Source of the DNA: Bacteroidota bacterium
GTDB taxonomy: Bacteria > Bacteroidota > Ignavibacteria > UBA10030
DNA length: 64,000 nucleotides
Assembly (NCBI GenBank): GCA_021813905.1
Contig: JAKAJH010000009.1
Span: 7,346 to 71,345 of the forward strand
Direction of reading: 5' to 3'
Below, piece by piece: positions 42,252-60,312 of this stretch. Position numbers and translations under genes: made by a program. The notes under the pieces are model-generated. The model was not told the origin of the DNA, searched no databases, and saw nothing but the letters and a program-made list of their open reading frames with translations. How positions within the stretch are numbered: the first letter of the stretch is position 1; every line of letters begins with the position of its first letter.

Positions 42252-42285
42252 TCCAACTCAACATCAACCAGAGAGGGAGAGTCCT

Positions 42286-44628: not shown

Positions 44629-44641
44629 TTGTTCACCCCGA

Positions 44642-44672
44642 GGGAGGAGAAGGGCCTGTCCCTTCTCCTCCC
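44642..44672 (+). terminator. Perfect 13-bp GC-rich hairpin immediately after the T9SS-cargo gene (terminator/attenuator or RNA-processing stem)
   Basis: GGGAGGAGAAGGG (44642-44654), loop CCTGT, then CCCTTCTCCTCCC (44660-44672). Followed by CGGATATTTCAGG, which is only a weak U-tract. Confidence 0.45.
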
Positions 44673-44693
44673 CGGATATTTCAGGATACTCTC

Positions 44694-46076: not shown

Positions 46077-48883
46077 CCCGGAGAATCGGCAGAACGCTCC
46101 TCCTGGTGCTCGCGCTGGCGTTCATGATGCCGGCACTGTCGGCGCAGGAAAAAGGCAGCATCAAAGGACTTGTGAAAGACGCCAAGACCAAGGAAGGTCT
46201 TCCGGTCGTCAACGTCAAAGTGAAGGGGACGTACTATGGCGCTGTGACGGACATGGACGGCAATTACATCATTGCGAACGTCAATCCCGGCAGCTACGTG
46301 GTCGAGTTCACGCTTCTCGGCTATACGGCCGTTCAAGTGACGGACGTGCGCGTCCAGGCGGGCAAGTCGACGGAGCTGAATCAGAACCTCTCCGAGACAG
46401 TGCTCTCGCTCGGACAGGAAGTCGTCGTGGTCGGCGAGAAACCGCTGTTGAACGTGGAAGAAACCTCGAGCAAGCGCTCGGTGACCGCGGATGACCTCAA
46501 GGCCACCGCCGTCGTAAACGTGAAGGATGTGGTGGGTCAGCAGGTGGGCGTCGTCGAAGCCGATAACGAGGTGCATATCCGCGGCGGTCGTGCGAGCGAA
46601 AATGCATACTTGCTTGACGGGATCTCGGTGCAGGATCCGTTGGCAGGCACGGGCTTCGGGCTCCAACTCAGCGCGGATGCCGTCCAGCAGATCGAGGTGA
46701 TCACGGGCGGATACAATGCGGAGTATGGACAGGCAACGTCGGGCGTCGTGAACGTGCAATTGAAGGACGGATCCGACCGGTTCGAGGGAAGCGTCGGGGT
46801 GAAGCGGGATAACCTGGGCATCTTCCCGGAAACCTTCAAGCCCTTCAACTCGGAGAGCTACGAGGGATCGCTCAGCGGTCCAATTCCAGTTTCGGCGATC
46901 ACCGATCTTGTGGGTCTCGGCGATATCGGCACCATGAGCTTCTTCACGAGCGCCTATGCGGGCTTTACGGACGGCTTCATGGGCAAGACCGCGCATCGGC
47001 TGAATTCATCGACATTCTACGGGACGCGGTTCACCCCTCGCGAAGAGAACAATCTCTTCTTCCTCGGGAAAGTGACGTGGAAGATCACGCCGCTGGTTCG
47101 CCTGGCATATTCCTACACGCATTCGGTGGCGATCAACCAGAATTCCCAGTCATTGCAGACCAACCTGGAATACGTCGAGCCCAGTCCCGGATTTCAGTAC
47201 GAGTTCGAAAACATCCTCGACAACGCAAACACGTACACGCACAACAACCAGATTCATACGCTGTCGTTGACGCACACGCTGTCGAACTCCATGTTCTATG
47301 AGCTGCGGCTGTCGCACTTCTTCACGAATCTCCGCGCGGATGCAAACGGAACGCCATACAACCAGTACCGCGAGCCGAAGGACATCGTCACGTTCCCGCT
47401 CTCGTATTACAATCTTGGCCACGACACGGTCGGCGTGATTCCGGGCGACGGTTTCTACGATTTCGGCAATGCGTTCACGTGGCACGATCACTTCGTGGCC
47501 GAGAATACGGTGAAGTTCGATCTGACAAAGAACTTCTCCGACAAGAATAAGTTCAAGACCGGTGTCGAGGCGACGTTCCAGGAGATGCAGAACGTCGATA
47601 TCTATGAGCCGTGGATCGGGACACTCGGACTGAACAACGACATCTATCACGTCTACCCGGCGTTCGGTGCGCTCTACGCACAGGATAACATCACGTTCAG
47701 CGGCATGATCCTGAACTTCGGCCTGCGGTTCGATTACTGGTTCCCGGGCAAGTATGTGGATGATGCGGTGAACAATCCGGCGGTCATCACCATCCCCGAT
47801 CAGGTGCGGCAGCACTATCTTGATCATACCTATACGTTGTTCGGGCGCCACTGGAAGGGCCGCCTCAGCCCGCGCCTCGGCATCTCGCATCCGGTCTCGG
47901 ACAATCAGATGCTGTATTTCTCGTACGGCCATTTTTCAAAGCGGCCGAAGCCTCAATTTCTCTATGCGAAGCTCAGTCCGAGCTCGGCCCAATCGACCTT
48001 CCAGAAGTTCGGCAATCCGGATCTGAATCCGGAGACGACCGTGGCCTATGAGCTCGGCCTCCAGACGCAGTTCACGAATGACGACGTGCTCAGCGTGACG
48101 GTGTACTACAAGGACATCTTTGATTACGTGTCGACACGCACGGCCCGGATCACCTCGGCCCGACTTGCCAGTACGAATTACGTCACGTACGTGAACCAGG
48201 ACTACGCGCGCTCGCGCGGTGTCGAGGTCGAATACCGGAAGCGAATCGGCCGCTGGTTCCGGGGGACGGCCTCCGGCTCGTATTCAATCACGACGGGCAA
48301 GAGCTCCTCGGCCGATCAGGGACTGCTCATCGCGCGCGGGCTGGAAGATGAGTCGGTGAAAGAGAATTACGTGGTTTGGGATCGTCCGCTCCAGTTCACG
48401 GTCACGTCAACGGTGACGGTGGAGAAGGGGAAAGGGCTGTTCGGCTTTGGCAAGAACATCCTGGACAACCTTTCGGTCTACGCACGGGCGTTCTATGAAT
48501 CCGGCAAGCGGTATACGCCGTACATCTACGACGGCGTGCTGACGAGCAACGGCCGGCCTGACTACATTCAGGACCGGAATAACCTGCTGGGCGGCATCGG
48601 TGAAAATTGGTTCTGGATCGACATGAACATCGAGAAGTACTTCGATGTGGCCGGTCTGGAATTCACCTTCTCGGTCCAGGTGAAGAACATCCTGAACAAC
48701 AGGAACTCCACGATTATCAATCCGGTGACCGGTCGAGCCTATGAGTACGGCGATCCCACGCCCACCAACTGGAACGATCCGCTCTATCCGTCATTGCAGG
48801 CTCCGGTGTCTCCATTTCCGTACAATCCCGCGCGCTATCTCGCGCCGCGGGAGATGATCCTTGGACTTTCGGTGAAATTCTGA
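46073..48883 (+). CDS. TonB-dependent-receptor-like outer-membrane protein with N-terminal carboxypeptidase-regulatory-like domain
   Basis: Signal peptide. CarboxypepD_reg-like segment (GSIKGLVKDAKTKEGLPVVNVKVKG...TDMDGNYIIANVNPGSYVVEFTLLGY). Plug region (NVEETSSKRSVTADDLKA...HIRGGRASENAYLLDGISVQDPL). Long beta-barrel ending in F (LGLSVKF). Confidence 0.85.
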   Translation: MTRRIGRTLLLVLALAFMMPALSAQEKGSIKGLVKDAKTKEGLPVVNVKVKGTYYGAVTDMDGNYIIANVNPGSYVVEFTLLGYTAVQVTDVRVQAGKSTELNQNLSETVLSLGQEVVVVGEKPLLNVEETSSKRSVTADDLKATAVVNVKDVVGQQVGVVEADNEVHIRGGRASENAYLLDGISVQDPLAGTGFGLQLSADAVQQIEVITGGYNAEYGQATSGVVNVQLKDGSDRFEGSVGVKRDNLGIFPETFKPFNSESYEGSLSGPIPVSAITDLVGLGDIGTMSFFTSAYAGFTDGFMGKTAHRLNSSTFYGTRFTPREENNLFFLGKVTWKITPLVRLAYSYTHSVAINQNSQSLQTNLEYVEPSPGFQYEFENILDNANTYTHNNQIHTLSLTHTLSNSMFYELRLSHFFTNLRADANGTPYNQYREPKDIVTFPLSYYNLGHDTVGVIPGDGFYDFGNAFTWHDHFVAENTVKFDLTKNFSDKNKFKTGVEATFQEMQNVDIYEPWIGTLGLNNDIYHVYPAFGALYAQDNITFSGMILNFGLRFDYWFPGKYVDDAVNNPAVITIPDQVRQHYLDHTYTLFGRHWKGRLSPRLGISHPVSDNQMLYFSYGHFSKRPKPQFLYAKLSPSSAQSTFQKFGNPDLNPETTVAYELGLQTQFTNDDVLSVTVYYKDIFDYVSTRTARITSARLASTNYVTYVNQDYARSRGVEVEYRKRIGRWFRGTASGSYSITTGKSSSADQGLLIARGLEDESVKENYVVWDRPLQFTVTSTVTVEKGKGLFGFGKNILDNLSVYARAFYESGKRYTPYIYDGVLTSNGRPDYIQDRNNLLGGIGENWFWIDMNIEKYFDVAGLEFTFSVQVKNILNNRNSTIINPVTGRAYEYGDPTPTNWNDPLYPSLQAPVSPFPYNPARYLAPREMILGLSVKF

Positions 48884-49869
48884 TGCGCCGCACACTTCTC
48901 ATCGTATTCATTGTCGCGCTGATCGTCGGATGTGTCCCGGCGCAGGCGCAGATCGTTCCTGTTCTCGGCGCGCAGCGGGCCGGTACCTCGACCGCCCAGT
49001 TCCTCAAGATCGCTGTTGGTGCACGGGCGGCGGCAATGGGAGAAAGCTTTGTGGCCGTGGCGAATGACGCGTCGGCGCTCTTCTGGAACCCGGCGGGCAT
49101 CACCCAGTTCACGCAGACGGAGGTGATCCTGGCGCACACGACATGGGTGGTGGATGTGCAGCACGAATTTGCCGGCCTGGTGTATCACCTCACTCCCGAC
49201 GATGCCGTCGGCGTGTCGGTGACATCCGTGCACACCGATGACATGCAGGTGACAACGGAGCTTCAGCCCCGGGGGACAGGAGACTACTTCAGCTACGGCG
49301 ACCTCGCTATCGGAGTCACGTACGGCCGCCGCATGACGAATCAGTTCAGCTTCGGAGCGACCGTTCGATATCTTGAAGAGACGATGGCCTCGCTGAAGAT
49401 GCGCGGGGTGGTGCTCGATTTCGGAACGTATTACTGGACCGGATTAGGAACGTCCCGGTTCTCGGCGGTGGTGACGAATTTCGGCAATCAGATCGGACCG
49501 ACCGGCACGGCACCGCAGGTCGGAGGAGGTACCGTCACGTCGTTCCAGCAGTACCCGCCGCCGACGATGTTCAAATTCGGTTTCGCGCTCGATCCGATCA
49601 AAGATGAGTCCAACATTCTGACGACATCGATCCAGTTGAATCACCCCAACGACAACTCCGAGAACGTCGGCCTCGGTGTTGAATACGGATGGATGAATGC
49701 GTTCTTCCTGCGGGGGGGATATAAACTGAATGTCGAGGAACAGGCGCTTTCCTTCGGTGCCGGCGTCGCGGCTTCACTGGGCATCGCCCATGTGGCCGTC
49801 GACTACGCCTATGCCTCGTTTACGAATCTCGGTCCGACCCATCGGATCTCAATGCTGGTGACGTTGTGA
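48883..49869 (+). CDS. PorV/PorQ-like (FadL-like) outer-membrane beta-barrel protein
   Basis: Signal peptide. N-terminal motif GARAAAMGESFVAVANDASALFWNPAGI, as I recall for the PorV/PorQ family. Alternating beta-strand pattern. C-terminal hydrophobic/aromatic end. Start overlaps the upstream stop by 1 nt (TGATG). Confidence 0.55.
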   Translation: MRRTLLIVFIVALIVGCVPAQAQIVPVLGAQRAGTSTAQFLKIAVGARAAAMGESFVAVANDASALFWNPAGITQFTQTEVILAHTTWVVDVQHEFAGLVYHLTPDDAVGVSVTSVHTDDMQVTTELQPRGTGDYFSYGDLAIGVTYGRRMTNQFSFGATVRYLEETMASLKMRGVVLDFGTYYWTGLGTSRFSAVVTNFGNQIGPTGTAPQVGGGTVTSFQQYPPPTMFKFGFALDPIKDESNILTTSIQLNHPNDNSENVGLGVEYGWMNAFFLRGGYKLNVEEQALSFGAGVAASLGIAHVAVDYAYASFTNLGPTHRISMLVTL

Positions 49870-50963
49870 GACAATTCGCGCCCCTTGCTCTGCTGCTTTT
49901 GATGCTGGCCGCCTGCCAGGAATATCGCTTCCCTGTGGAAACGCTGCCTCAGGGCGGTCAACGGACCGGCCAGATCGGCGACACGCTCTATGTTCAGCAA
50001 TATCCGAATTGGGAGGGATTCAACCAACCCCAGGCCATTGCTGTTGGATTTGAACCCCTGCTCTATGTCGCCGACACGGACAACGACCGGGTCGTCATGC
50101 TCGATCTGGCCGGACGCGTCATCGGCTATTCACCGATGATCAAGCATCCGGTGGCAATCGCGGAGGATCGGAGACTGCAGCTGCTCGTCTGCGCCGAATT
50201 CGATACGCTTCTGGCGGGACAGAGCCATCCGACCACCTTCGGAGCGATCTATCGGATTGACCTTGTGGCCACGGGCCATGACATCACGACCGCCACTCCG
50301 GTCCGCGTGTTCACGGAGTTGAGTGACTCGAGCCGGCGGTACAGCGCCGTCGCGACGATGTACGACAATTCATACTACGTGACGCGGGTAGGGCCGAAGA
50401 ACGCTTTGACGAGCTTTGACCGGGATAACGCCATTCTGCTGTTTGCGAAGAATGATTCGCTCATCACCCCGGTGACGGCAAACTTCTCTCCGGATGGCAC
50501 CGGCCTCCTGTCGATCCATGCCGCCACCGGCATCGCCACGATGCCGACGGGCAAGAGCGTGGAATTCGTCTTTTCCCAGGTGGAATCGAACTCCGGGATC
50601 ACTCCGCTGTACAAAGTACAATGGATCCGGCTCGTCTCGGAAGGACAGACGACCAACTACCTGTCGAAGTTCTATCCGAGCGTGGATGGCGATATAGATC
50701 TGCTGCGCATCAACCGGTTCACCCATCCGACGGGCGTCACGCTTGATCCGTCCGGGAATCTCTACGTGACCGATGCAGGAACCGACAGTCTCTATCGCTT
50801 CACGCCGCGGGGTGTGGAAGCGTACTCCTTCGGTGGGACCGGATCGGGGGAACGGCAGTTCCGGCAACCGGCCGGGGTGGCGTACTTCGACAAAACAGTG
50901 TATGTGGCGGACAAGGGAAACAACCGCATTGTTCGCTTCAAACTTTCGACAGATCTGCAGTGA
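49866..50963 (+). CDS. NHL-repeat beta-propeller lipoprotein
   Basis: Lipobox LLMLAAC. NHL repeats LYVADTDNDRVVMLD, LYVTDAGTDSLYRFT, VYVADKGNNRIVRFK. GTG start in a GTGA overlap with the upstream gene. Confidence 0.75.
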   Translation: MRQFAPLALLLLMLAACQEYRFPVETLPQGGQRTGQIGDTLYVQQYPNWEGFNQPQAIAVGFEPLLYVADTDNDRVVMLDLAGRVIGYSPMIKHPVAIAEDRRLQLLVCAEFDTLLAGQSHPTTFGAIYRIDLVATGHDITTATPVRVFTELSDSSRRYSAVATMYDNSYYVTRVGPKNALTSFDRDNAILLFAKNDSLITPVTANFSPDGTGLLSIHAATGIATMPTGKSVEFVFSQVESNSGITPLYKVQWIRLVSEGQTTNYLSKFYPSVDGDIDLLRINRFTHPTGVTLDPSGNLYVTDAGTDSLYRFTPRGVEAYSFGGTGSGERQFRQPAGVAYFDKTVYVADKGNNRIVRFKLSTDLQ

Positions 50964-50967
50964 CGTG

Positions 50968-50995
50968 TGCCGGCCCTGCGAGTGCCGGGCCGGCA
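50968..50995. terminator. GC-rich hairpin between the convergent NHL gene (+) and ecfA2 (−); candidate bidirectional terminator
   Basis: TGCCGGCCC (50968-50976) pairs with GGGCCGGCA (50987-50995). The flanking U-tracts are poor. Confidence 0.4.
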
Positions 50996-51003
50996 TGCCT
51001 TCG

Positions 51004-51771
51004 TTACGCTGATTCCTCCGTCGTACCTCGTTCAAGCATTTCGATCACACGCTGCGGCCAGGAGAATCGTACACCGGCTGCGCGTACCTGCGTCTGGTAC
51101 AGCCGCAATTCCTGAGGCGGTCCCGCGACCATCACTCCGCCCTTGTTGAGAACCAGCACCTGCGTCGCCAGCGGCAGCAGCGTTTCTACGTCGTGCGTGG
51201 CAACGACGAGCGTCCTTCCACGGTCCCGGAGCTGCTGAAAGGCAGTCAACGCCGTCCGGCGCTGTCCGTACGAGAGTCCGGCCGTCGGTTCGTCGAACGC
51301 GAGGACCGGCGTTTCCATCGCAACCGCAGAAGCCAATGTCAGAAGCTTCCGATACGAGGGATGAAGATCGTACGGATGGGTGGTTCGGTGCGCCAGCAAT
51401 CCGAAGAGTTCCAGCGCATGTGCCGCGGAACGGTCAGGATCAGCGCGGCGGAGATTGTGCGGACCGTACTGAACCTCGTCGATGACCGTGTGACGGAAGA
51501 TCTGATCGGCCGCACGCTGAAAGGTCACCGCGACGTGTCCGGCAAGGACTGAGACGGGATGCTCACTGGTGCGCAATCCATTCACCCGGATCGATCCCGA
51601 GGTCGGCTGCAGGAGTCCGTTGAGGAGCTTCAGAAGCGTGCTTTTGCCGGCGCCGTTGTGCCCGAGGATCAGCAGACAGGATCCTGGCGGCGCGGACAGA
51701 TCGATGGCGTGCAGCGCGCTTGCCGTGCATCCGGGGTACGTGAACGATACGCTGGAGATCTCGAGGATCAC
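51004..51771 (-). CDS. ecfA2: ECF transporter ATPase component A' (second ABC ATPase)
   Basis: Walker A GHNGAGKST, signature motif, Walker B LAFDEPTAGL. GTG start at 51771-51769 overlaps the TGA stop of ecfA1 (GTGA). Confidence 0.85.
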   Translation of the reverse strand: MILEISSVSFTYPGCTASALHAIDLSAPPGSCLLILGHNGAGKSTLLKLLNGLLQPTSGSIRVNGLRTSEHPVSVLAGHVAVTFQRAADQIFRHTVIDEVQYGPHNLRRADPDRSAAHALELFGLLAHRTTHPYDLHPSYRKLLTLASAVAMETPVLAFDEPTAGLSYGQRRTALTAFQQLRDRGRTLVVATHDVETLLPLATQVLVLNKGGVMVAGPPQELRLYQTQVRAAGVRFSWPQRVIEMLERGTTEESA

Positions 51772-52649
51772 GTCATACCCGCCAGTCGCCGGAGCCGGCG
51801 GACCAGTGGATCGCCGGCTGGGGCACGTTCGAGACGCCGAAGGGCCGTGGTCCACGGTTCGGTCGGCAGCATGTCGCAGTACAGCGATCCGCTCCGGATA
51901 AGATCGGCGGGTGATCCGGTGAAACGAACACCGCCGGCGTCGAACACGCAAACGGTATCCGCACATCGTACGGCAAGATCAAGCGTCGTGTCCGTGAACA
52001 TGATGGTCGACCGGTGCGCCAGACGACGCAACAGGGATGCGAGCGCGATTGCAGACGCCGGATCCAGAGCGCTCGCCGGTTCGTCGAGCAGGAGCACAGA
52101 TGGTCCTGTGGCGATAGCACTTGCCAGTGCGACCTTCTGAATCTCTCCACCCGAAAGAGAACGAAGCGTCCGATCACGCAGATGAGGAATGCCGAGCAAC
52201 CGGAGACTCTCTTCCAGATGATGCTCTGCGTTTTCACGCGCGACACCGGCATGACGCAATCCGAGCAGTATCTCTTCCTGTACAGTGTCCGTCAGACCGG
52301 AGATCTGAACGGCCGGATCCTGAAGCAGCATGGAAACGTGCGGAAATTCCGGGTGTGAGGGGAACGGGGTGAACGCATGACCGAGCACCGCGACGCTTCC
52401 GGACGATGAGGCACCGGTCCCGTGGATCCCGAGCAGCCCCGCGATGGCAAACAGGAGCGTGGTCTTTCCGGCTTCGCTGGGGCCGAGGATGGCCATCACA
52501 GACCCTTCGGGCACGCGCAGAGATACGTGTTCAAGCGCAGGCCGGGAGCTGTGCGCGTACGTGTAGGACAGATCTCGTATGTCTATCGCTGGATCCACGC
52601 GAGGAGTCTCCAGGCAACAGTGATAAAGCTGAGCGACAGCAAGGGCCAC
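51768..52649 (-). CDS. ecfA1: ECF transporter ATPase component A (first ABC ATPase)
   Basis: Walker A GPSEAGKTT, LSGGEIQKVALASAI signature, Walker B LLLDEPASALD. The true start may lie downstream of 52649, because the 5' end overlaps ecfT by 67 nt. Confidence 0.85.
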   Translation of the reverse strand: MALAVAQLYHCCLETPRVDPAIDIRDLSYTYAHSSRPALEHVSLRVPEGSVMAILGPSEAGKTTLLFAIAGLLGIHGTGASSSGSVAVLGHAFTPFPSHPEFPHVSMLLQDPAVQISGLTDTVQEEILLGLRHAGVARENAEHHLEESLRLLGIPHLRDRTLRSLSGGEIQKVALASAIATGPSVLLLDEPASALDPASAIALASLLRRLAHRSTIMFTDTTLDLAVRCADTVCVFDAGGVRFTGSPADLIRSGSLYCDMLPTEPWTTALRRLERAPAGDPLVRRLRRLAGMT

Positions 52650-53323
52650 GTCCAGCGGGATGCCGACGAGGCGGTCGAATAGGACGGGAGGATCCGCGCG
52701 CTCCCCAGACCGCGCAAAGCGTACGCATGACCTCGTTCGATCGCTTCGGCGAGGGAGGAGACCGTCAGCGGACCGAGGACGGCAATGAGACTCCGAAATC
52801 GGGCGAGCAGAGAGCCCCGAACCGGAGCCCCGCGCGCCTCCTGCGCTGCCAGAATGTCGTGAATGCGGTCCGGAAGCATCTCGACGATGTGAACCGAGAG
52901 CAGCGTGAGGATGGCCAGTGCGGAGGGCAGGCCGCGATCCTCGATGAAATCCGCGATGGCCCGCATGGGCGTGCTCAGGAAGAAGAACAGCACGCTTGCC
53001 GACAGCAGGATCAGACGCAGGGCTACCGTGGAGGCAAAAAGGACTCCCGATCTATTCAGCGCGATGCCTCCGACAATGAGTGTGCGCCCGGCGCCGGAGA
53101 ACATCAATCCGTTGACGATGAGCAGGACGATACTGAGGATCGCGAGAAAGGCGAGGAAACGTCGCGCCGTGTGTTTCGCACGCTCCGACGGCAATCTCCA
53201 CATCGGGGAGAACAACGGAAGTGCGAAGAGGGTCAGCACAAGGACAATCTGCAGCGTCCATGGAGCGGCGACGGCGGAGATCCAGCAGTACAGCACGAAC
53301 GCCAGTTTCGGCGCCGGTTTCAT
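52583..53323 (-). CDS. ecfT: ECF transporter transmembrane (T) component, CbiQ/EcfT family
   Basis: Multi-TM protein. Its C-terminal region has the ARG..G-type motifs of EcfT coupling helices (AAQEARGAPVRG, ERGHAYALRG). Confidence 0.75.
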   Translation of the reverse strand: MKPAPKLAFVLYCWISAVAAPWTLQIVLVLTLFALPLFSPMWRLPSERAKHTARRFLAFLAILSIVLLIVNGLMFSGAGRTLIVGGIALNRSGVLFASTVALRLILLSASVLFFFLSTPMRAIADFIEDRGLPSALAILTLLSVHIVEMLPDRIHDILAAQEARGAPVRGSLLARFRSLIAVLGPLTVSSLAEAIERGHAYALRGLGSARILPSYSTASSASRWTWPLLSLSFITVAWRLLAWIQR

Positions 53324-53973
53324 GCGACGTGGTCTGCCGCGGGCGGCTGGATCCGGACTGCACCCGGAAATCGCATCAGCAGACGGGAGGGGAGGCGGGA
53401 GAGGAGCGCCACCACGAGCAGATAGGAGATCACCTTGTCGACCGGATCGGACGTGAGTCCCTGCAGCAACGTGCTCCGGAGGATGTCGTTTCCGAGGGAC
53501 CGGTACAGGATCACGAGCAGATCAGTGCCGGCCAGCATCGTCCCCCCGAAGACGTACGCCGCGATGGGTGCGGAGATGAGCGCCGCAATGACTCCCTGCA
53601 AAACGCCGCCGAGGACCGTGAGCGGCCATCGACGGAACCAGCCCCATCGGGCAACCAGGGAAGTCCAGATTGCGATGACGCAGACGACGGGGATGAAGAA
53701 TGCCATTGCGGGATTGCCGAACGCGGCCGCAAGCAGATTGGCCAGTGATCCGGAAATTGCGGCCTGCCACGGTCCGGCGAGCACCGCGACAAGTATGGTA
53801 CCCAGCGAGTCGAGGTAAATCGGAATCTTCAGAGCGGCCGTGATCTGACCGACGACGAGATTCAGCGCGGTCCCGAACGCCATGAGGGGCAGAACGGGAC
53901 CGGCGAAGAGAGAATGAAAGCGCGTGGAGTTCATGACAGGGCGAAGCGGCCGTGCGTCCGTGTCGGCGCGCAT
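53320..53973 (-). CDS. ECF transporter substrate-specific (S) component, substrate unknown
   Basis: About 180-aa six-TM hydrophobic core. ATGA overlap with ecfT. Likely start MNSTRF at 53934. It begins 25 nt after the stop of the PDH E2 gene. Confidence 0.6.
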   Translation of the reverse strand: MRADTDARPLRPVMNSTRFHSLFAGPVLPLMAFGTALNLVVGQITAALKIPIYLDSLGTILVAVLAGPWQAAISGSLANLLAAAFGNPAMAFFIPVVCVIAIWTSLVARWGWFRRWPLTVLGGVLQGVIAALISAPIAAYVFGGTMLAGTDLLVILYRSLGNDILRSTLLQGLTSDPVDKVISYLLVVALLSRLPSRLLMRFPGAVRIQPPAADHVA

Positions 53974-53998
53974 GCCTGGCTCAGGGTCCGGATCGGGA

Positions 53999-55231
53999 TT
54001 ACAGGAGCAACTGCGCAGGGCGTTCCAGGGTCGCCTTCAGTTCCTGCAGGAACCGGGCGGCCACGGCGCCGTCGATGATGCGATGGTCGGACGAGAGCGT
54101 CATCTTCATGTGATGGCCGACCACGATCTGGCCATTGCGTACCACCGGCGCCTCCAGGATCGCCCCGACGGCAAGGATCGCACCCTCCGGCGGATTGATG
54201 ATAGCGACGAAATCCTCAACGCCGAACATCCCCAGGTTGCTGATGGTGAACGTGGCTCCCTGATACTCCTCGGCCTTCAGACGGCGGTTGCGCGCTCGCT
54301 CGACAAGATCACGCAGTTCGGTGTTGATCTGGAAGAGGCCCTTCCGTTCGCAATTCCGGAGCACCGGCGTGACGAGGCCGTCCTCGAGGGCGACCGCGAC
54401 GGCGATGTTGGCCTCGCCGAACTGTCGCATCCGATCGCCGAGATACGTGGCGTTGACGTTGGGATGTTTCAGAAGGGTGGCGGCGCACGCTTTCACGAGA
54501 AGATCTGTGAAGCTGAGCTTCACGGCGGAGACGGCATTCAGCTGTTCGCGAAATGCCATCGCCGGCTCCATGTCCACGTCCATTGTCACATAAAAATGCG
54601 GCGCGGTCTGCTTGCTCTCCTGCATTCGCCTGGCGATCGTCTTGCGGATGAGCGAAAGTTCGACATCCTTCGTCTCGCCGGTGGGGACGGTGGCGGACAC
54701 GGGGGCCGCCGGCACCTTCCCGGAGATCAGCGGCTCAAGATCCCGCTTGATCACACGTCCCTGCGGACCGGACCCGGAGATCCGACGAAGATCGATCCGG
54801 TTCTCTTCCGCCAGCCGCCGGGCGAGCGGGGAAGCTTTTGCTTTTCCGGTCTCGACGACGGGCGACGGAGTCACGCTCAGAGCAGCTGGTGCCGTTGCAG
54901 GGGCAGGGGCTTGGGCTGCGGGCGACGTCGCAGGCTGAGGCTTTGACGCTCCCGGGGGCGGGACGTCCGTGAGGAGCGCGGAAATATCCTCATCTGCCGC
55001 CGCAATCACCGCGATCGGTGCGCCGATCGGTGCCTTGCCCCCCTGGGAAACGATGATCTTCCGGAGAAGCCCGGAGTCGTACGCCTCCAGCTCCATATCG
55101 GCTTTGTCCGATTCGATTTCGACGAGGATTTCGCCCTGCTTGACCTTCTCACCTTCGGCTTTCAACCACTTCAGGATGAGACCTTCGGTCATGGTGTCGC
55201 TGAGCTTCGGCATCAGGATCTTGGTTGCCAT
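53999..55231 (-). CDS. pdhC: Dihydrolipoamide acetyltransferase (E2) of a pyruvate/2-oxoacid dehydrogenase complex
   Basis: Lipoyl domain with EIESDKADMEL, Ala/Pro-rich linker, E3-binding segment, catalytic domain with DHRIIDGA. Start MATKILMPKL at 55231. Confidence 0.92.
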   Translation of the reverse strand: MATKILMPKLSDTMTEGLILKWLKAEGEKVKQGEILVEIESDKADMELEAYDSGLLRKIIVSQGGKAPIGAPIAVIAAADEDISALLTDVPPPGASKPQPATSPAAQAPAPATAPAALSVTPSPVVETGKAKASPLARRLAEENRIDLRRISGSGPQGRVIKRDLEPLISGKVPAAPVSATVPTGETKDVELSLIRKTIARRMQESKQTAPHFYVTMDVDMEPAMAFREQLNAVSAVKLSFTDLLVKACAATLLKHPNVNATYLGDRMRQFGEANIAVAVALEDGLVTPVLRNCERKGLFQINTELRDLVERARNRRLKAEEYQGATFTISNLGMFGVEDFVAIINPPEGAILAVGAILEAPVVRNGQIVVGHHMKMTLSSDHRIIDGAVAARFLQELKATLERPAQLLL

Positions 55232-55250
55232 AGTGTGTCCCCGGAGCGGA

Positions 55251-56234
55251 TCAGTCGAGATACATCGCTTTGCGGACGGCGCGAATGACGCGCTGGATGT
55301 TGGGCAGTGAACTGACCTCGAGGTTGTGCGCGTAGGGCAGGGGCACGTCCTCCTGGGTGACGCGTTCCACAGGAGCGTCGAGATCGTCGAAGCAGTGCTT
55401 TTGCACTTCATCCACGATCTGTGCGCCGACGCCCGCGAAGGGCCAGCCTTCCTCGACGATGACGAGCCGGTTCGTCTTGCGCACCGATGCGAAAATGAGT
55501 TCCCAGTCCATTGGCTTGATGGTGCGGGGGTCGATCAGTTCCACGCTGATGCCTTCCTCGGCCAGGCGTTGAACCGCCTTGACCGTCACATGCTGAAGGA
55601 TCTTGGACCAGGAGACCACCGTGACGTCCGTGCCTTCACGAAGAATCTCTCCCACGCCGAGGGGAATTGTGTATTCGCCGTCCGGGATCTCGCCCTTCTC
55701 GCCGTACATCACTTCACTTTCGATGAAGATGATGGGATTGTCGTCGCGAATGGCGGTCTTCAGCAATCCCTTGGCATCCCGAGGATTGGAGGGCATGACC
55801 ACCTTTAAGCCGGGAATGTGCGCGTAGATCGACTCGAGTGCCTGGGAATGCGTCGCGCCCAGATTGTGGGCCGCTCCGCCGGGTCCGCGGAAGACGATGG
55901 GAACGTGAAAATGCCCGCCCGACATGGAAAGCATCTTGGCGGCGTGATTGACGATCTGGTCGTACGCGACGAGCGAGAAGTTCCACGTCATGAACTCCAC
56001 GATGGGGCGCAGGCCAACCATGGCGGCGCCGATGCCGACACCGGCAAATCCTGCCTCCGCGATCGGTGTGTCGATGATCCGCCGGGGACCGAATTTTTGC
56101 AGGAGACCCTGGCTGACCTTGTAGGCCCCGTTGTACTGCGCCACTTCTTCACCCATGAGGAAGACCCGCTCATCGCGGGTCATTTCCTCGTCCATCGCCT
56201 GATTCAACGCTTCACGGATACTGACAACCGCCAT
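55251..56234 (-). CDS. pdhB: Pyruvate dehydrogenase E1 component beta subunit
   Basis: Transketolase-like pyrimidine-binding and C-terminal domains (RVFLMGEEV...IIDTPIAEAGFAGVGIGAAMVGLRPI). Confidence 0.93.
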   Translation of the reverse strand: MAVVSIREALNQAMDEEMTRDERVFLMGEEVAQYNGAYKVSQGLLQKFGPRRIIDTPIAEAGFAGVGIGAAMVGLRPIVEFMTWNFSLVAYDQIVNHAAKMLSMSGGHFHVPIVFRGPGGAAHNLGATHSQALESIYAHIPGLKVVMPSNPRDAKGLLKTAIRDDNPIIFIESEVMYGEKGEIPDGEYTIPLGVGEILREGTDVTVVSWSKILQHVTVKAVQRLAEEGISVELIDPRTIKPMDWELIFASVRKTNRLVIVEEGWPFAGVGAQIVDEVQKHCFDDLDAPVERVTQEDVPLPYAHNLEVSSLPNIQRVIRAVRKAMYLD

Positions 56235-56237
56235 TCC

Positions 56238-57269
56238 TTAAAACCCTCCCCGTTCGAAATACACGTCCTTCCACAACTCATCCGCCGGTGGCTCCGGACT
56301 GTTCTCGGCAAACTCCACGCATTCGTCCACCACGGCCTTGATCCGCTTTTCGGCGTTTTCGAAGTACTCGTCAGACGCGAGGCCGTCACGCTTCAGCGAT
56401 TCGGCAAAGACGACGAGCGGATCCAGTTTCTTCTGTGTCTCGACTTCTTCCTTCGTGCGGTAATGGCCGCTCACCGGGTCCGACATGGAGTGGCCGCGGT
56501 ACCGGAATGTCTGGATCTCGAGCAGGCTCGGTTCATACGTCGCACGGGCGTGATCCACGGCGGCCTTCACCGCCTTGTGTACGGCCAGGACGTCGTAGCC
56601 GGACTCCACCACCTCATTGCGCATGTCATACGCTGCGGCCTTCTGGTGAAGTTCCTCCACGGCGGATGCGCGGGCCACCGCGGTGCCCATGCCATACTTG
56701 TTATTCTCGATGATGTAGATCACCGGAAGCTTCCAGAGCGCCGCCAGATTCAGCGATTCGTGAAATGTGCCGATGTTCGTCGCCCCGTCGCCGATAAAAC
56801 AAAGGCAAACCCGCTTTTCGCCGCGGTACTTGCTGGCGAATGCGACCCCGGCCGCGATCGGGATATGACCGCCCACGATCGCATGACCGCCGAGGAAATT
56901 CTTCTCGCGGTCGAAGATGTGCATCGAGCCGCCCTTGCCTTTCGTGGTGCCGGTATGCTTTCCAAGCAGTTCGGCCAGAATGGCCCTGGGATCGACTCCC
57001 TTTGAGATCGCCAGACCGTGGTCACGGTAGGCGGTGATGACGTAGTCTTCGGGGTTGATGGCGCCGAGCGATCCGGTCGAGACTGCCTCTTGACCGTTAT
57101 AGAGATGGCAGAAGCCTCCGATCTTTCCCATGCCGTACAACTGCGCGCTCTTCTCCTCAAACCGGCGAATGAGAAGCATTTCATCGTACCACTTGAGGAG
57201 CGTGTCTGGAGGAAGCCCGGGGTCGCGGGTTGGTTTTGAGGGGGCTGAACCGATTGCTGAATTGTTCAT
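56238..57269 (-). CDS. pdhA: Pyruvate dehydrogenase E1 component alpha subunit (TPP-binding)
   Basis: TPP motif CFIGDGATNIGTFHESLNLAALWKLPVIYIIENNKYGMGT. Phosphorylation-loop-like YRGHSMSDP. Start MNNSAIG at 57269. Confidence 0.9.
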   Translation of the reverse strand: MNNSAIGSAPSKPTRDPGLPPDTLLKWYDEMLLIRRFEEKSAQLYGMGKIGGFCHLYNGQEAVSTGSLGAINPEDYVITAYRDHGLAISKGVDPRAILAELLGKHTGTTKGKGGSMHIFDREKNFLGGHAIVGGHIPIAAGVAFASKYRGEKRVCLCFIGDGATNIGTFHESLNLAALWKLPVIYIIENNKYGMGTAVARASAVEELHQKAAAYDMRNEVVESGYDVLAVHKAVKAAVDHARATYEPSLLEIQTFRYRGHSMSDPVSGHYRTKEEVETQKKLDPLVVFAESLKRDGLASDEYFENAEKRIKAVVDECVEFAENSPEPPADELWKDVYFERGGF

Positions 57270-57809
57270 CAATACGTGGACCAGGTGCTGTGAGAGAAGT
57301 TGCCGGCGCATTATGAACATCAAAATATACGATTTAGTTGCAATATATGCGCACTGAGAAGATGTCAGCTGCATTGTAGAAAATTCAGACGATTGCGTCC
57401 GATCTTCGCGGAAACCTTGTCCCCGCACGTGTGGCGCGGAAATTGCCCGCTTAAGCATGCTCGAGTCCCGGCTCTATCGCGATATTGCGCTATGCCCGAG
57501 AGCGGACGTTCATGAGCCTTCAACCTGCTGGAGATCGGGCGGCACGCAGCAACGTCTCAGCAGTGCCGTGCGGTCGTGACGGGGTGCCCTGATCTGCCGG
57601 ACACAAGCTCCGGAGGATCTCAACGCAACGACCGATGGGGCCGTCGCACGGCTCGGAGGCAGGACATTGACAGTCCTTGAAATTGCGCGAGGTCGGCTTT
57701 GCGAGATGAGTATGGAACGCGGGGAGGCTGGGCAGCGACCGATCCGATCGGCGTTCAGCCGATTGCTTCTGATGCCGAGCCCGCTGATCACGGACAAGAG
57801 CAGAATACT

Positions 57810-58193
57810 ATGTCGACCGGAACCGTATTGGTGATCGATGACGAAGAACTCGTTCGGGATGTTGTCGAAGACACCCTGCGCTCCGAGGGGATTACTGTCT
57901 CGTTGGCGGCGAACGGGACGGAGGGGATTCGTCTGTTCCGCGATCACTGGCGGGAGGTCGGCGTTGTCCTGCTTGACCTCTCCATGCCCGGACTGAGCGG
58001 TGAAGAGACATATCGGCTCCTTCGGGAGATTGATCCTTCCGTCAAAGTCATTTTCTCCTCCGGCTATAGCGCCAACGATGCGCTCAGTATGCTTCCGGAA
58101 GGTGACACCACGAACTTCATCAAAAAGCCGTACAAAGGAACATCCCTCGTCGAAATGATTTGCCGGATCATGCGGAGTTCGACAACAGCGTAG
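57810..58193 (+). CDS. Single-domain response regulator (CheY-like receiver)
   Basis: VLVIDDEELVRD...LLDLSMPGLSG...KPY receiver motifs. 127 aa from MSTGTV. Confidence 0.8.
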   Translation: MSTGTVLVIDDEELVRDVVEDTLRSEGITVSLAANGTEGIRLFRDHWREVGVVLLDLSMPGLSGEETYRLLREIDPSVKVIFSSGYSANDALSMLPEGDTTNFIKKPYKGTSLVEMICRIMRSSTTA

Positions 58194-58369
58194 AAGGGGC
58201 GATTCAACGCGGCGCGTGAGTCCCGAGGAGCGCTCCGATCCGTCGGCAAAAACAGTCACGTGTCCGCCGGAAACTTGAAGTATCCTCGGATCTTCCGCCA
58301 CCGTGGCTTTCCTCCTGTTCGATCCCTGCCTTTCATTTTCAGCAAAAAAATGATTACACTGACATCAAT

Positions 58370-59233
58370 ATGTCAGTGCCGAACCCGGATATTGTGGATC
58401 TCGTGGATCGCGCGTTGGCCGAAGATATCGGCGCAGGCGATGCCACCACGAACAGCATCATCCCGGCGGACGCAATGATGCGGGGAACGATCGTCGCCAA
58501 GCAGCACGGCGTGATCGCCGGTCTAGATATCGTCGGGATCGTCTTCAGCAGGCTGGATGGGACTTCGAACGTTACTGCGCTGGCGGGCGAAGGATCCAGG
58601 GTTGCCACAGGAAGTCCCGTGGCGGAGATTGTGGGCCTGACCCGGGCACTCTTGACAGGCGAGCGGACCGCGCTGAATATCCTCGGCCGGATGTCCGGCA
58701 TAGCGACGTCGACGCGTGCGTTCGTGGACGCTGTTGCGGGAACGAAGGCGGTCATTCTCGACACGCGAAAGACGGTCCCCGGATTGCGCACCCTGGATAA
58801 GCTGGCGGTCCGACGGGGCGGAGGCCGGAATCATCGCATGGGCCTCTTCGATATGGTGTTGATCAAAGATAATCATATTGATGCGGCGGGATCGATTCGG
58901 AACGCGGTTGCGCGCGTGCGCTCGGCGGCGCCGGGACTACCGGTGGAAGTGGAAGCCCGCACGCTGGCGGACGTGCGTGAAGCGCTGGAACTGGGGGTCG
59001 AACGGATTCTGTTGGATAATATGACGCCGGCGATGATGCGTGAGGCGGTCGGCATCACGGCCGGGCGCGCACGCCTGGAAGCATCGGGGAACGTGACGCT
59101 CAAAACGGTCCGTGCGATCGCTGAGACGGGAGTGGACGAGATCTCTGTCGGAGCCCTGACGCATTCGCCGACATCCCTGGATGTCAGTTTCCGTTGGAGC
59201 GGAACTGGTCCTGCACCGGCGAACCGGAACTGA
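58370..59233 (+). CDS. nadC: Nicotinate-nucleotide pyrophosphorylase (quinolinate phosphoribosyltransferase)
   Basis: ALAEDIGAGDATT...ERTALNILGRMSGIAT...DNHI. Confidence 0.93.
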   Translation: MSVPNPDIVDLVDRALAEDIGAGDATTNSIIPADAMMRGTIVAKQHGVIAGLDIVGIVFSRLDGTSNVTALAGEGSRVATGSPVAEIVGLTRALLTGERTALNILGRMSGIATSTRAFVDAVAGTKAVILDTRKTVPGLRTLDKLAVRRGGGRNHRMGLFDMVLIKDNHIDAAGSIRNAVARVRSAAPGLPVEVEARTLADVREALELGVERILLDNMTPAMMREAVGITAGRARLEASGNVTLKTVRAIAETGVDEISVGALTHSPTSLDVSFRWSGTGPAPANRN

Positions 59234-59252
59234 GTTAATCGAAGACGCGACG

Positions 59253-60293
59253 ATGGAAGCAGCGATCACGGCGATGTATCAGCGGTTGCACGAAAAGCTC
59301 CGGACGACGGTCCCCGACGCGGAGATCCGCATCAAAGCGAGACTCGCAGCAGAGATCAACCGCCTGAAACAGGAGCGGAACGCCGTCATTTTGGGGCACA
59401 ACTACATGGAGCCGGCGCTTTATCATTCAATCCCGGATTTCCAGGGTGACTCGCTCGAGCTCTGTCGCGAAGCGGCGAAGACTGATCGGGACATCATCGT
59501 GTTTTGCGGCGTCCGGTTCATGGCGGAAACGGCGAAGATCCTGAATCCCGAGCGAACGGTCCTGCTGCCGTCCCTTGAGGCGGGATGTTCGCTCGCCGGA
59601 AGCATCACGGCTGCAGACGTCCGGGCGTTGAAGATGCGGTATCCCGGCGTCCCGGTGGTGAGCTATGTGAACACCTACGCGGATGTGAAAGCGGAATCCA
59701 CGATCTGCTGCACGTCGGGAAATGCCGCTGCCGTGGTCGAGTCGTTGGGCACGGACACCGTGATCTTCCTTCCGGACGAGTTCCTCGCACGGAACGTTGC
59801 GCGGGAGACCGGACGGCACATCATCTTCCCGTCCGCGATGTCGCCTGCCCCCGCGGAGACCGAACTGGACGTGCAAATGATCGGCTGGCGCGGACGGTGC
59901 GAGGTGCATGAGCGGTTCACGACGCAGGATATCGCGAATGTTCGGGCTCAATTCCCCGATGCGGTGATCCTGGCGCATCCGGAATGCAGTCCCGAAGTGA
60001 CTGCGGCCTCGGATTTCTCCGGCAGCACCGGCGCCATGATCCGCTATGTGGAGCAGACGAAAGCGCCCCGCTATCTGCTGTTGACGGAATGTGCGATGGG
60101 GGACAATATCGCCGCAGCGAATCCCGACAAGGAAATGCTCCGACTCTGTTCCGTTCGCTGTCCGCATATGAACCAGATTACGCTCGAGGATACGCTCGAG
60201 TCGCTGCAGCACAATCGGCATATCATCGACCTGCCCGCGGACATCATCGAGCGGGCGGCCGCTGCGGTGGAACGAATGATCGCGGTCGGATGA
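59253..60293 (+). CDS. nadA: Quinolinate synthase A
   Basis: VILGHNYMEP...VFCGVRFMAETAKIL and Cys ligands for the 4Fe-4S cluster. Start MEAAITAMYQ. Confidence 0.92.
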   Translation: MEAAITAMYQRLHEKLRTTVPDAEIRIKARLAAEINRLKQERNAVILGHNYMEPALYHSIPDFQGDSLELCREAAKTDRDIIVFCGVRFMAETAKILNPERTVLLPSLEAGCSLAGSITAADVRALKMRYPGVPVVSYVNTYADVKAESTICCTSGNAAAVVESLGTDTVIFLPDEFLARNVARETGRHIIFPSAMSPAPAETELDVQMIGWRGRCEVHERFTTQDIANVRAQFPDAVILAHPECSPEVTAASDFSGSTGAMIRYVEQTKAPRYLLLTECAMGDNIAAANPDKEMLRLCSVRCPHMNQITLEDTLESLQHNRHIIDLPADIIERAAAAVERMIAVG

Positions 60294-60312
60294 CCGGTCG
60301 CAGGACACTCCA

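What the first reader, a model, noticed from the sequence alone, without database searches (positions are those of the whole stretch)
51004..57269. Pyruvate dehydrogenase E1alpha-E1beta-E2 genes run directly into a complete ECF transporter (S-T-A-A')
pdhA, pdhB and the E2 gene are followed after 25 nt by an ECF S component. The S, T, A and A' genes that follow overlap by 4 nt or more. All seven genes are on the minus strand with no room for an internal promoter, which implies co-transcription. PDH depends on two cofactors: thiamine pyrophosphate (E1) and lipoate (E2). ECF S components for thiamine, thiamine precursors and lipoate (ThiT, ThiW/HmpT, LipT) are established families. The gene context therefore predicts a PDH-dedicated cofactor import system, most plausibly thiamine or lipoate. 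No E3 (lpd) gene is in the operon.
Basis: partly seen in the sequence, partly recalled or inferred. Interest (0 to 1): 0.6.

Follow-up and report, generated by a model that had tools for sequence, protein, structure and literature searches.

The report
PDH genes beside an orphan ECF importer
Three pyruvate dehydrogenase genes are followed on the same strand by a complete four-gene ECF micronutrient importer, an order kept across Ignavibacteria-like bacteria, but the importer's relatives sit with queuosine-salvage genes, so a queuosine-type compound is a more likely cargo than thiamine or lipoate.

Summary
On the minus strand, pdhA, pdhB and E2 are followed by an ECF S, T, A and A' module (51004-57269). 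Its internal junctions overlap by 4, 16 and 4 nt.

The same seven-gene order recurs in 25 of 80 species-level genomes that carry a homologous S component. All 25 are Ignavibacteria or "Bacteroidota" MAGs.

The proposed meaning, a PDH-dedicated thiamine or lipoate importer, is not supported:
- The S protein matches no thiamine S-component model. No lipoate model was available to test.
- No TPP riboswitch is present.
- Its only specific hit is sub-threshold, to NCBIfam's uncharacterised "CD3073 family".
- The sister clade of the same S family (Chloroflexota, Actinobacteria, Acetothermia) sits beside Qng1-like Q_salvage plus tRNA-guanine transglycosylase, nucleoside hydrolases, or a ribokinase-like kinase. 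That is a queuosine/nucleoside salvage signature.
- In 20 of the 25 related genomes a strong terminator-like hairpin lies between E2 and S. The window has lost it.
- The wider block is syntenic too, so adjacency alone is weak evidence.

Best reading: a dedicated ECF importer resembling QrtTUVW (by gene context only), probably read through from the PDH promoter in this organism, and linked to PDH by inherited gene order. The substrate remains untested.

The parts
56238..57269 (-). pdhA, pyruvate dehydrogenase E1 alpha (343 aa from ATG 57269; a longer ORF runs to 57458)
   Evidence: PF00676 at 6e-93; TIGR03182 at 458 bits, above the 394 cutoff. Homologues are 339-340 aa.
55251..56234 (-). pdhB, E1 beta (327 aa)
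   Evidence: Transket_pyr plus Transketolase_C domains; NF006667 at 521 bits, above the 321 cutoff.
53999..55231 (-). E2 dihydrolipoamide acetyltransferase (410 aa from ATG 55231)
   Evidence: Biotin_lipoyl, E3_binding and 2-oxoacid_dh domains. TIGR01349 scores 444.4 against a cutoff of 445. The start codon was read.
53935..53998 (-). E2-S spacer (64 nt, or 25 nt if S starts at 53973). No hairpin or T-run here, unlike most relatives.
   Evidence: Fold z-score is +0.98.
53320..53934 (-). ECF S component (204 aa; alternative start 53973 gives 217 aa) of an uncharacterised family
   Evidence: NF045596 at 118.9 bits (below 180) and PF12822 at 22.8 bits (below 30.7). AlphaFold pLDDT is 88, and the top 14 PDB fold hits are all ECF S components. 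The search returned 718 homologues.
52583..53323 (-). ECF T component (246 aa); its start overlaps the S stop (ATGA)
   Evidence: PF02361 CbiQ at 63.8 bits, above the 25 cutoff. Junction read.
51768..52598 (-). ECF ATPase A (276 aa from GTG 52598; longest ORF starts at 52649). The H-loop His is replaced (FTDT).
   Evidence: ABC_tran. The best NCBIfam hit is TIGR04520 ECF_ATPase_1 at 128 bits, below its cutoff. Junction; H-loop.
51004..51771 (-). ECF ATPase A' (255 aa from GTG 51771; GTGA overlap with A)
   Evidence: ABC_tran. The best hit is TIGR04521 ECF_ATPase_2 at 159.5 bits, below its cutoff. Junction.
50968..50995 (.). 9-bp GC-rich hairpin between the stop of A' and the stop of the convergent NHL-repeat gene; likely end of the transcription unit
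   Evidence: Sequence. Fold energy -26.3 kcal/mol, z = -2.92.
57270..57809 (.). About 540-nt divergent intergenic region upstream of pdhA; presumed promoter region, with no riboswitch detected
   Evidence: Sequence; no Rfam hit. The divergent response-regulator gene is inferred from synteny with L003.

Best explanation
Shown: the four genes downstream of E2 encode a complete, dedicated (group I) ECF-type ABC importer. It has a six-helix S component that binds the substrate, a CbiQ-type T scaffold and an A/A' ATPase pair. The first ATPase lacks the H-loop histidine.

Inferred for this organism: the module is most likely transcribed by read-through from the PDH promoter, because no terminator separates it from E2.

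Inferred for its origin: the position next to PDH is an inherited gene order of Ignavibacteria-type Bacteroidota. In most relatives an intrinsic-terminator-like hairpin sits between E2 and S, and the S start codon follows 15-35 nt after the T-run. ECF expression there would be an attenuated read-through fraction of PDH transcription.

Inferred for the substrate: most likely a queuosine-family compound (queuosine, queuine or a 7-deazapurine precursor) or a related ribonucleoside, as in QrtTUVW-type systems. It is probably not thiamine or lipoate. The PDH link would then be regulatory or historical, not a cofactor-supply pathway.
For: Module identity:
- The S model has pLDDT 88.3 and the top 14 PDB fold matches are all ECF S components.
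- The junctions overlap.

Linkage:
- pdhA-pdhB-E2-S-T-A-A' occurs in 25 of 80 species loci. The PDH-linked S proteins form one monophyletic subclade.
- It also occurs in L001-L008.

Substrate class:
- All S clades hit the same NCBIfam model at similar scores, 118-135 bits.
- They share nearly all invariant polar residues, including the LK[IL]P[LI]YLDSxGT loop.
- In clade II the module is flanked by Q_salvage (PF10343, 2e-93) plus TGT (1.9e-107 to solved TGTs) in L064 and L069, and by Q_salvage in L072.
- It is flanked by IU_nuc_hydro (3e-92) in 5 Actinobacteria loci.
- It is flanked by a PfkB ribokinase-like kinase, directly downstream in 21 Chloroflexota loci and on the opposite strand in 2 more.
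- PF12822-type QrtT proteins are the experimentally supported ECF S components for queuosine precursors (PMC11130926, PMC11477304).

Against a cofactor link:
- There is no TPP riboswitch or other Rfam element.
- A hairpin plus T-run lies in the E2-S spacer of 20 of 25 relatives.
- The sister Bacteroidota subclade keeps S-T-A-A' and the same downstream NHL-PorV-TBDT genes, but has no PDH.
- The carboxyltransferase and SLT-LysM genes that follow the module in Ignavibacteriales are also present in the window at 35998-39993. The whole block is therefore syntenic.
Against: - No queuosine, nucleoside-salvage or tgt gene lies in the window or in any PDH-linked locus. The substrate inference rests entirely on the sister clade.
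- The Bacteroidota clade differs from clade II at otherwise fixed positions: G12/A69/F79 against T12/W69/P79. Loss of a conserved Trp could mean a different ligand.
- PDH-ECF adjacency is kept across two different flank types, so it is more stable than either flank. Some selection for linkage is possible.
- The window, L001, L003 and L006 have no terminator, which is compatible with a true operon.
- Six Bacteroidota loci couple a Flavin_Reduct gene to A'. The queuosine reading does not explain this.
- No sequence comparison with a validated QrtT was possible.
Confidence: 0.45

Rival explanations
1. One reading: the ECF module imports thiamine, a thiamine precursor or lipoate specifically to equip the co-encoded PDH E1 (TPP) or E2 (lipoyl).
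For: - The module is adjacent and co-directional with E1 and E2, and this order is conserved in at least 25 species.
- No terminator is present in the window.
- The S fold's top PDB hit is ThiT (TMt 0.68), although FolT, RibU and PanT score nearly the same.
- One clade II member gives a weak sub-threshold ThiW hit of 26.4 bits, below 30.3.
Against: - The window S protein has no ThiT, ThiW or YkoE match.
- No TPP riboswitch is found in the window or in related loci. From general knowledge, bacterial thiamine transporters are usually under TPP riboswitch control.
- No lplA, lipA, lipB or thi genes are nearby.
- The sister clade's context is queuosine/nucleoside salvage.
- A terminator separates PDH from the ECF module in 20 of 25 relatives.
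- The module exists without PDH in the sister Bacteroidota subclade.
Confidence: 0.12
2. The Bacteroidota clade has shifted specificity to another cofactor or precursor used around acyl-CoA metabolism, such as a CoA precursor, riboflavin/flavin or an NAD precursor. This would explain its neighbours: PDH, an acyl-CoA ligase and a flavin-reductase-like protein.
For: - Clade-specific substitutions, including W69 to A, occur at positions invariant in clade II.
- PDH lies upstream in one subclade. A divergent acyl-CoA ligase lies upstream in the sister subclade.
- A Flavin_Reduct gene is translationally coupled to A' in 6 loci of both subclades.
Against: - The acyl-CoA ligase is divergently transcribed. 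It also occurs further upstream of a PDH-linked locus (L032), so its adjacency may be residual synteny.
- E1 and E2 do not use flavin, and no E3 is in the cluster.
- The window carries nadC-nadA-nadB, so an NAD precursor need not be imported (by synteny).
- There is no similarity to RibU, PanT or NiaX models beyond the generic fold.
Confidence: 0.13
3. The substrate is something else entirely, unrelated to both PDH and queuosine, and the gene order is pure historical accident.
For: - The family is uncharacterised. It scores below the cutoffs of both PF12822 and NF045596.
- General synteny of the region is high.
- No informative neighbour is present in the window.
Against: The binding-loop motif and most polar invariant residues are shared with the queuosine-salvage-linked clade. 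This argues for at least a chemically related ligand.
Confidence: 0.25

Closest known systems
QrtT / QrtTUVW, ECF transporters for queuosine precursors (C. difficile queK-qrtT-queL; PMC11130926, PMC11477304)
   Same: - Both have an ECF S component at the edge of, or inside, PF12822.
- Both use a dedicated T plus two ATPases.
- The sister clade of this S family is clustered with TGT, Qng1-like Q_salvage and IUNH-type nucleoside hydrolase, which are the signature partners of QrtT.
   Different: - The window's module has no queuosine-related neighbour and no preQ1 riboswitch.
- Its clade lacks the Trp that is conserved in the queuosine-linked clade.
- Sequence relatedness to a validated QrtT could not be tested here.
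NCBIfam NF045596, 'CD3073 family putative ECF transporter S component' (uncharacterised)
   Same: It is the only specific model hit, and the hit is full length (model positions 3-172 of 174, E = 1.8e-34). All clades of the family hit it equally.
   Different: Scores of 118-135 bits are well below the 180-bit cutoff. This is a sister family, not a member, and the CD3073 family itself has no assigned substrate.
Thiamine and lipoate S components (ThiT, ThiW, YkoE/HmpT, LipT)
   Same: They share the six-helix S-component fold. ThiT is the top Foldseek hit, at 14% identity.
   Different: There is no significant sequence match and no TPP riboswitch. FolT, RibU and PanT match the fold equally well.
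Dedicated (group I) ECF systems such as BioMNY and CbiMNQO
   Same: The S, T and ATPase genes sit in one cluster with overlapping junctions.
   Different: The S family differs. There are two distinct ATPase genes, one with a degenerate H-loop. The module is fused or abutted to a central-metabolism operon.
pdhA-pdhB-pdhC clusters of the alphaproteobacterial/mitochondrial heterotetrameric E1 type
   Same: E1 alpha is of the 'y' type (TIGR03182). E1 beta and a single-lipoyl E2 follow in the same order, and E3 is encoded elsewhere.
   Different: An ECF transporter follows directly. The searched literature does not describe this, including the I. album and M. roseus genome papers.

Membership tests
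ECF-type ABC importer, dedicated (group I) module | Adjacent genes for S, T (CbiQ/EcfT) and two ABC ATPases | tested here: met
   CbiQ scores 63.8 bits, above the 25 cutoff. There are two ABC_tran genes whose best NCBIfam hits are the ECF_ATPase_1 and _2 models. Overlaps are -4, -16 and -4 nt.
ECF-type ABC importer, dedicated (group I) module | S component with the six-helix ECF S fold | tested here: met
   The AlphaFold model has pLDDT 88.3. The top 14 Foldseek PDB hits are ThiT, FolT, RibU and PanT, with TMt 0.52-0.68.
ECF-type ABC importer, dedicated (group I) module | ATPases reach the NCBIfam ECF_ATPase equivalog cutoffs | tested here: not met
   Scores are 128.3 against 315 for A and 159.5 against 330 for A'. 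These are divergent ATPases, and A lacks the H-loop His.
Pfam PF12822 ECF_trnsprt | Score at or above the gathering threshold of 30.7 bits | tested here: not met
   The window S scores 22.8 bits. Six other family members score 23.7-30.1 bits.
NCBIfam NF045596 CD3073 family S component | Score at or above 180 bits | tested here: not met
   The window S scores 118.9 bits. Other clades score 118-135 bits.
Thiamine-related ECF S components (ThiT, ThiW, YkoE) | Match to the family model | tested here: not met
   The window S has no hit at E <= 0.01. One clade II member gives a weak ThiW hit of 26.4 bits, below 30.3.
Thiamine-related ECF S components (ThiT, ThiW, YkoE) | TPP riboswitch upstream | tested here: not met
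   There is no Rfam hit in 49-60 kb at E <= 1, none in the whole window at gathering threshold, and none in 6 PDH-linked loci.
LipT (predicted lipoate S component) | Sequence membership, or clustering with lplA | not testable with these tools
   No LipT model exists in Pfam or NCBIfam as searched. No lipoate gene was seen among the window ORFs scanned.
QrtT / QrtTUVW queuosine-precursor ECF transporter | Clustering with queuosine salvage genes (tgt, queK/IUNH, Qng1/Q_salvage) or a preQ1 riboswitch | tested here: inconclusive
   The feature is not met in the window or in any PDH-linked locus. It is met in the sister clade: Q_salvage-TGT-STAA' in L064 and L069, Q_salvage in L072, and IUNH in 5 loci.
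QrtT / QrtTUVW queuosine-precursor ECF transporter | Sequence similarity to an experimentally validated QrtT (C. difficile CD1683) | not testable with these tools
Pyruvate dehydrogenase complex (heterotetrameric E1 type) | E1 alpha, E1 beta and E2 with lipoyl, E3-binding and catalytic domains | tested here: met
   TIGR03182 and NF006667 are above their cutoffs. E2 has all three domains, and TIGR01349 scores 444.4 against 445.
Pyruvate dehydrogenase complex (heterotetrameric E1 type) | E3 (lpd) in the cluster | tested here: not met
   No lpd is found in the operon or among about 40 scanned ORFs of the window. E3 is often encoded elsewhere.

The most novel reading that the evidence does not exclude
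The PDH-linked subclade of this S family has been re-tuned to import a cofactor or precursor needed by PDH or acyl-CoA metabolism, such as lipoate, thiamine or a CoA or flavin precursor. It differs from the queuosine-linked clade by substitutions such as W69 to A and T12 to G, and its first ATPase has a degenerate H-loop. The conserved hairpin between E2 and S would act as an attenuator that sets a low transporter-to-enzyme ratio. That would make it a new cofactor-specific S-component family hard-wired to its client enzyme.
Probability: 0.15. Interest if true: 0.6.

Novelty: new member of a known kind. Interest (0 to 1): 0.3.

Why it matters
For this window the result is mainly corrective. Adjacency to PDH should not be used to annotate the transporter as a thiamine or lipoate importer.

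The wider S-T-A-A' family is large (718 homologues returned) and falls below Pfam and NCBIfam cutoffs, so it is easily missed. In other phyla it sits beside TGT, Qng1-like, nucleoside hydrolase or ribokinase-like genes. That makes it a candidate for some of the "missing" queuosine-precursor transporters noted in the literature, for example in Propionibacteriales (PMC11130926). Its PfkB partner is a candidate queuosine kinase.

If the Ignavibacteria version did turn out to be tied to PDH function, it would be an unusual case of a micronutrient importer wired to a central-metabolism operon.

Tried and rejected
- Rfam searches for a TPP, preQ1 or other riboswitch found nothing relevant. They covered the window and 20 related loci.
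- Profile search against PDB sequences gave only a weak FolT match (5.7e-5), which is not diagnostic.
- Fold search cannot discriminate substrates, because ThiT, FolT, RibU and PanT are all similar.
- The conserved E2-S hairpin was tested as a possible specific regulatory element. Its 8-bp stem is invariant in 16 species with no compensatory changes, and it occurs once per locus. However, the exact motif is common in metagenomes outside this context: 116 of 120 sampled hits lack E2 and S. It is therefore treated as an ordinary, orthologously conserved terminator.
- Other recurrent neighbours in clade II were read by eye as a subtilase, photolyase, DnaA, HPF, a glycosyltransferase and similar. 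They were judged lineage-specific synteny, not functional partners.
- Clusters c74 and c75 are antisense shadow ORFs.
- Literature: "CD3073" gave no papers. Rodionov 2009 and Yuan 2019 are not held. The I. album and M. roseus genome papers mention PDH but not the ECF genes. No paper links ECF to PDH in Ignavibacteria.
- The longest-ORF starts were rejected in favour of homologue-supported starts: 57458 for pdhA, 55411 for E2, 53973 for S, 52649 for A and 51966 for A'.


Full report
**1. What is in the sequence**

The minus strand of 51004-57269 carries seven consecutive genes.

- Pfam and NCBIfam identify pdhA (TIGR03182, 458 bits against a 394 cutoff) and pdhB (NF006667, 521 against 321).
- E2 has lipoyl, E3-binding and catalytic domains. 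TIGR01349 scores 444.4 against 445.
- A 204/217-aa membrane protein follows. Its only hits are PF12822 ECF_trnsprt (22.8 bits, below 30.7) and NCBIfam NF045596 "CD3073 family putative ECF transporter S component" (118.9 bits, below 180).
- Next come a CbiQ-type T component (63.8 bits against 25) and two ABC ATPases. Their best NCBIfam matches are the ECF ATPase models, below cutoff.

Reading the junctions gives these spacings:
- pdhA/pdhB: 3 nt.
- pdhB/E2: 19 nt.
- E2/S: 64 nt with the homologue-supported start at 53934, or 25 nt with the longest ORF.
- S/T: ATGA overlap.
- T/A: 16-nt overlap.
- A/A': GTGA overlap.

A GC-rich hairpin (z = -2.92) lies between the stop of A' and the convergent NHL gene.

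An AlphaFold model of S has pLDDT 88.3 and pTM 0.84, with six long helices. Its top 14 PDB fold matches are all ECF S components: ThiT, FolT, RibU and PanT, at 11-19% identity.

**2. Signals in the window**

- No sigma-70-like promoter and no convincing terminator lie between E2 and S.
- The spacer does not fold better than shuffles (z = +0.98).
- Rfam finds no riboswitch at E <= 1 in 49-60 kb. In the whole window it finds only a tRNA and the SRP RNA.

Co-transcription of all seven genes is therefore plausible in this organism. It is inferred, not shown.

**3. Is the linkage conserved?**

The S protein has 718 homologues in the protein search, mostly from Ignavibacteriales and "Bacteroidota" MAGs.

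- Contigs for P0001 (88% identical), P0002 (74%) and an Ignavibacterium sp. protein (58%) all show pdhA-pdhB-E2-S-T-A-A', with different flanks.
- A scan of one genome per GTDB species with an S alignment returned 80 loci.
- tblastn and ORF clustering show the seven-gene order in 25 of them.
- In an NJ tree these PDH-linked S proteins form one monophyletic subclade.
- Four more examples came from metagenomes.

The linkage is real and old. Three observations weaken it as evidence of a functional coupling.

First, in 20 of the 25 species the E2-S spacer contains a strong terminator-like hairpin, (G)AACCCGRC-loop-GYCGGGTT(C) followed by a T-run.
- The spacer is usually 60-100 nt and reaches about 670 nt.
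- The hairpin is the top-ranked terminator candidate in L009 and L024.
- Its 8-bp stem is invariant in 16 species.
- The S start codon follows 15-35 nt after the T-run, so ECF expression there must depend on read-through.
- The window, its close relatives (L001, L003) and a few others lack this hairpin.
- The exact motif is common elsewhere in metagenomes. It is a generic terminator type, not a special regulatory RNA.

Second, a sister Bacteroidota subclade (L030, L031, L034, L035, L038, L079) keeps S-T-A-A'. In L030, L038 and L079 it also keeps the NHL-PorV-TBDT genes that follow the module in the window. It has no PDH upstream. In L030, L031, L038 and L079 there is instead a divergent acyl-CoA ligase.

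Third, the carboxyltransferase and SLT-LysM genes that directly follow the module in Ignavibacteriales are also in the window, at 35998-39993. An inserted block of about 11 kb separates them from the module. The whole region is syntenic, so PDH-ECF adjacency is only moderately more stable than the background.

**4. What does the transporter carry?**

The S protein matches no thiamine S-component model (ThiT, ThiW, YkoE). No lipoate (LipT) model was available to test. A profile search of PDB sequences finds only a weak FolT match.

All clades of the family hit the uncharacterised CD3073 model at the same sub-threshold level, and hit PF12822 just below its cutoff. This is a distinct family at the fringe of PF12822.

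The informative evidence comes from the other half of the family (clade II: Chloroflexota, Actinobacteria, Acetothermia, WOR-3, Armatimonadetes). There the S-T-A-A' module has these neighbours:
- A PfkB ribokinase-like kinase directly downstream in 21 Chloroflexota loci, and on the opposite strand in 2 more (PF00294 at 2e-43). In some loci a PF01663 phosphodiesterase follows it.
- An IU_nuc_hydro nucleoside hydrolase directly upstream in five Actinobacteria loci, including Micropruina and Arachnia (PF01156 at 3e-92).
- A Q_salvage (Qng1-like, PF10343 at 2e-93) gene directly downstream in an Acetothermia MAG.
- Q_salvage followed by tRNA-guanine transglycosylase directly upstream in two Ardenticatenaceae MAGs. 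The TGT matches solved TGT structures at 1.9e-107.

TGT, Qng1 and IUNH-type queuosine hydrolases are the signature partners of queuosine-precursor transporters. The experimentally supported ECF S component for these compounds, QrtT, is a PF12822-type protein (PMC11130926, PMC11477304, PMC5372724). Clade II is therefore very probably a dedicated queuosine/queuine importer resembling QrtTUVW.

The window's clade shares nearly all invariant polar residues with clade II, including the LK[IL]P[LI]YLDSxGT loop, N66, S121, D138, Q158 and the DPxDK motif. This argues for a related ligand.

It also differs at a few otherwise fixed positions: G12/A69/F79 against T12/W69/P79, and Q30 in the PDH subclade against E30 in the acyl-CoA-ligase subclade. 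A shift in specificity cannot be excluded. That shift could be among queuosine-family compounds, as is known for the two C. difficile QrtTs, or to something else.

No tgt, Q_salvage, IUNH or PfkB gene occurs in the window or in any PDH-linked locus. No thi, lip, que or lpd genes were seen among about 40 window ORFs scanned.

**5. Verdict on the interpretation**

The step from adjacency to "PDH cofactor importer (thiamine or lipoate)" has no independent support, and several lines of evidence count against it:
- family classification;
- absence of a TPP riboswitch;
- the sister-clade context;
- the terminator in most relatives;
- existence of the module without PDH.

My probabilities for the four readings are:

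| Reading | Probability |
|---|---|
| QrtTUVW-like importer of a queuosine-family or related nucleoside, sitting next to PDH by inherited gene order and expressed here by read-through | 0.45 |
| Thiamine or lipoate importer for PDH | 0.12 |
| Another acyl-CoA, flavin or NAD-related cofactor | 0.13 |
| An unrelated unknown substrate | 0.25 |

**6. Novelty and interest**

The PDH-ECF gene order is not mentioned in the I. album or M. roseus genome papers, nor in any paper found. It is a gene-order curiosity around a new member of a known transporter class, so interest is modest.

The by-product may be more useful. A large S-T-A-A' family, missed by Pfam and NCBIfam thresholds, is tied to TGT, Qng1, IUNH and PfkB in several phyla.

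Noticed in passing
L064:7274-13000 and L069:7775-13000; L072:4700-8709: Ardenticatenaceae MAGs carry Q_salvage (Qng1-like), then tRNA-guanine transglycosylase, then S-T-A-A' on one strand. An Acetothermia MAG has Q_salvage directly after A'. This is a strong queuosine-salvage context for the sister clade of the window's S family.
   Followed up: yes
L054:8674-13006, L078, L081, L084, L087: Actinobacteria, including the Propionibacteriales genera Micropruina and Arachnia, have an IUNH-type nucleoside hydrolase directly upstream of S-T-A-A'. The S proteins score below the PF12822 cutoff (23.7 bits), so Pfam-based censuses would miss them. PMC11130926 notes that Propionibacteriales seem to lack known queuosine-precursor transporters.
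   Followed up: partly
e.g. L040:10001-15364, L052, L068; 21 Chloroflexota loci: A PfkB ribokinase-like kinase always follows A', and in some loci a PF01663 phosphodiesterase follows the kinase. The kinase matches no specific NCBIfam kinase. It is a candidate nucleoside (queuosine?) kinase that could feed a Qng1-type hydrolase.
   Followed up: partly
L009:9966-9988, L024:9946-9968 and 18 other PDH-linked loci (E2-S spacer): A hairpin, GAACCCGRC-loop-GYCGGGTTC plus a T-run, has a sequence-invariant stem across 16 species with no compensatory changes. It is absent from the window. The same motif is widespread elsewhere in metagenomes.
   Followed up: yes
window 51768-52598 (ATPase A) and homologues: The first ATPase lacks the H-loop histidine (FTDT in the window) in 21 of 22 PDH-linked loci, while most clade II homologues keep it. 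This suggests an asymmetric ATPase pair with one degenerate site.
   Followed up: partly
L028:12951-13550, L022, L029, L034, L038, L079: A Flavin_Reduct (PF01613) gene is translationally coupled or closely follows A' (-4, -11, +28 and +45 nt) in six Bacteroidota loci of both subclades. It has no homologue in the window and is unexplained by any substrate hypothesis.
   Followed up: partly
window 40200-50963: A block of an unannotated 683-aa ORF, a T9SS-sorted protein (Por_Secre_tail), a 460-aa ORF, a TonB-dependent-receptor-like protein, PorV and an NHL-repeat protein lies between the ECF module and the SLT-LysM and carboxyltransferase genes. In Ignavibacteriales those two genes directly abut the ECF module, so this looks like an insertion of about 11 kb into conserved synteny.
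   Followed up: partly
window 57510-58301 (-) versus 57699/57810-58193 (+): The 263-aa minus-strand ORF is probably a shadow of a plus-strand CheY-like response regulator. That regulator is transcribed divergently from pdhA and is followed by nadC, nadA and nadB (58370-61923). The same arrangement is seen in L003.
   Followed up: partly
L009:3079-6527, L014, L026, L027, L032 (upstream of pdhA): Two conserved genes read by eye as archaeal-type GatE and GatD (Glu-tRNA(Gln) amidotransferase) precede pdhA in five Ignavibacteria loci. This was not checked with a domain search.
   Followed up: no
window 19965-20389: A tRNA (19965-20037) and the small SRP RNA (20289-20389) are the only Rfam gathering-threshold hits in the window.
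   Followed up: no
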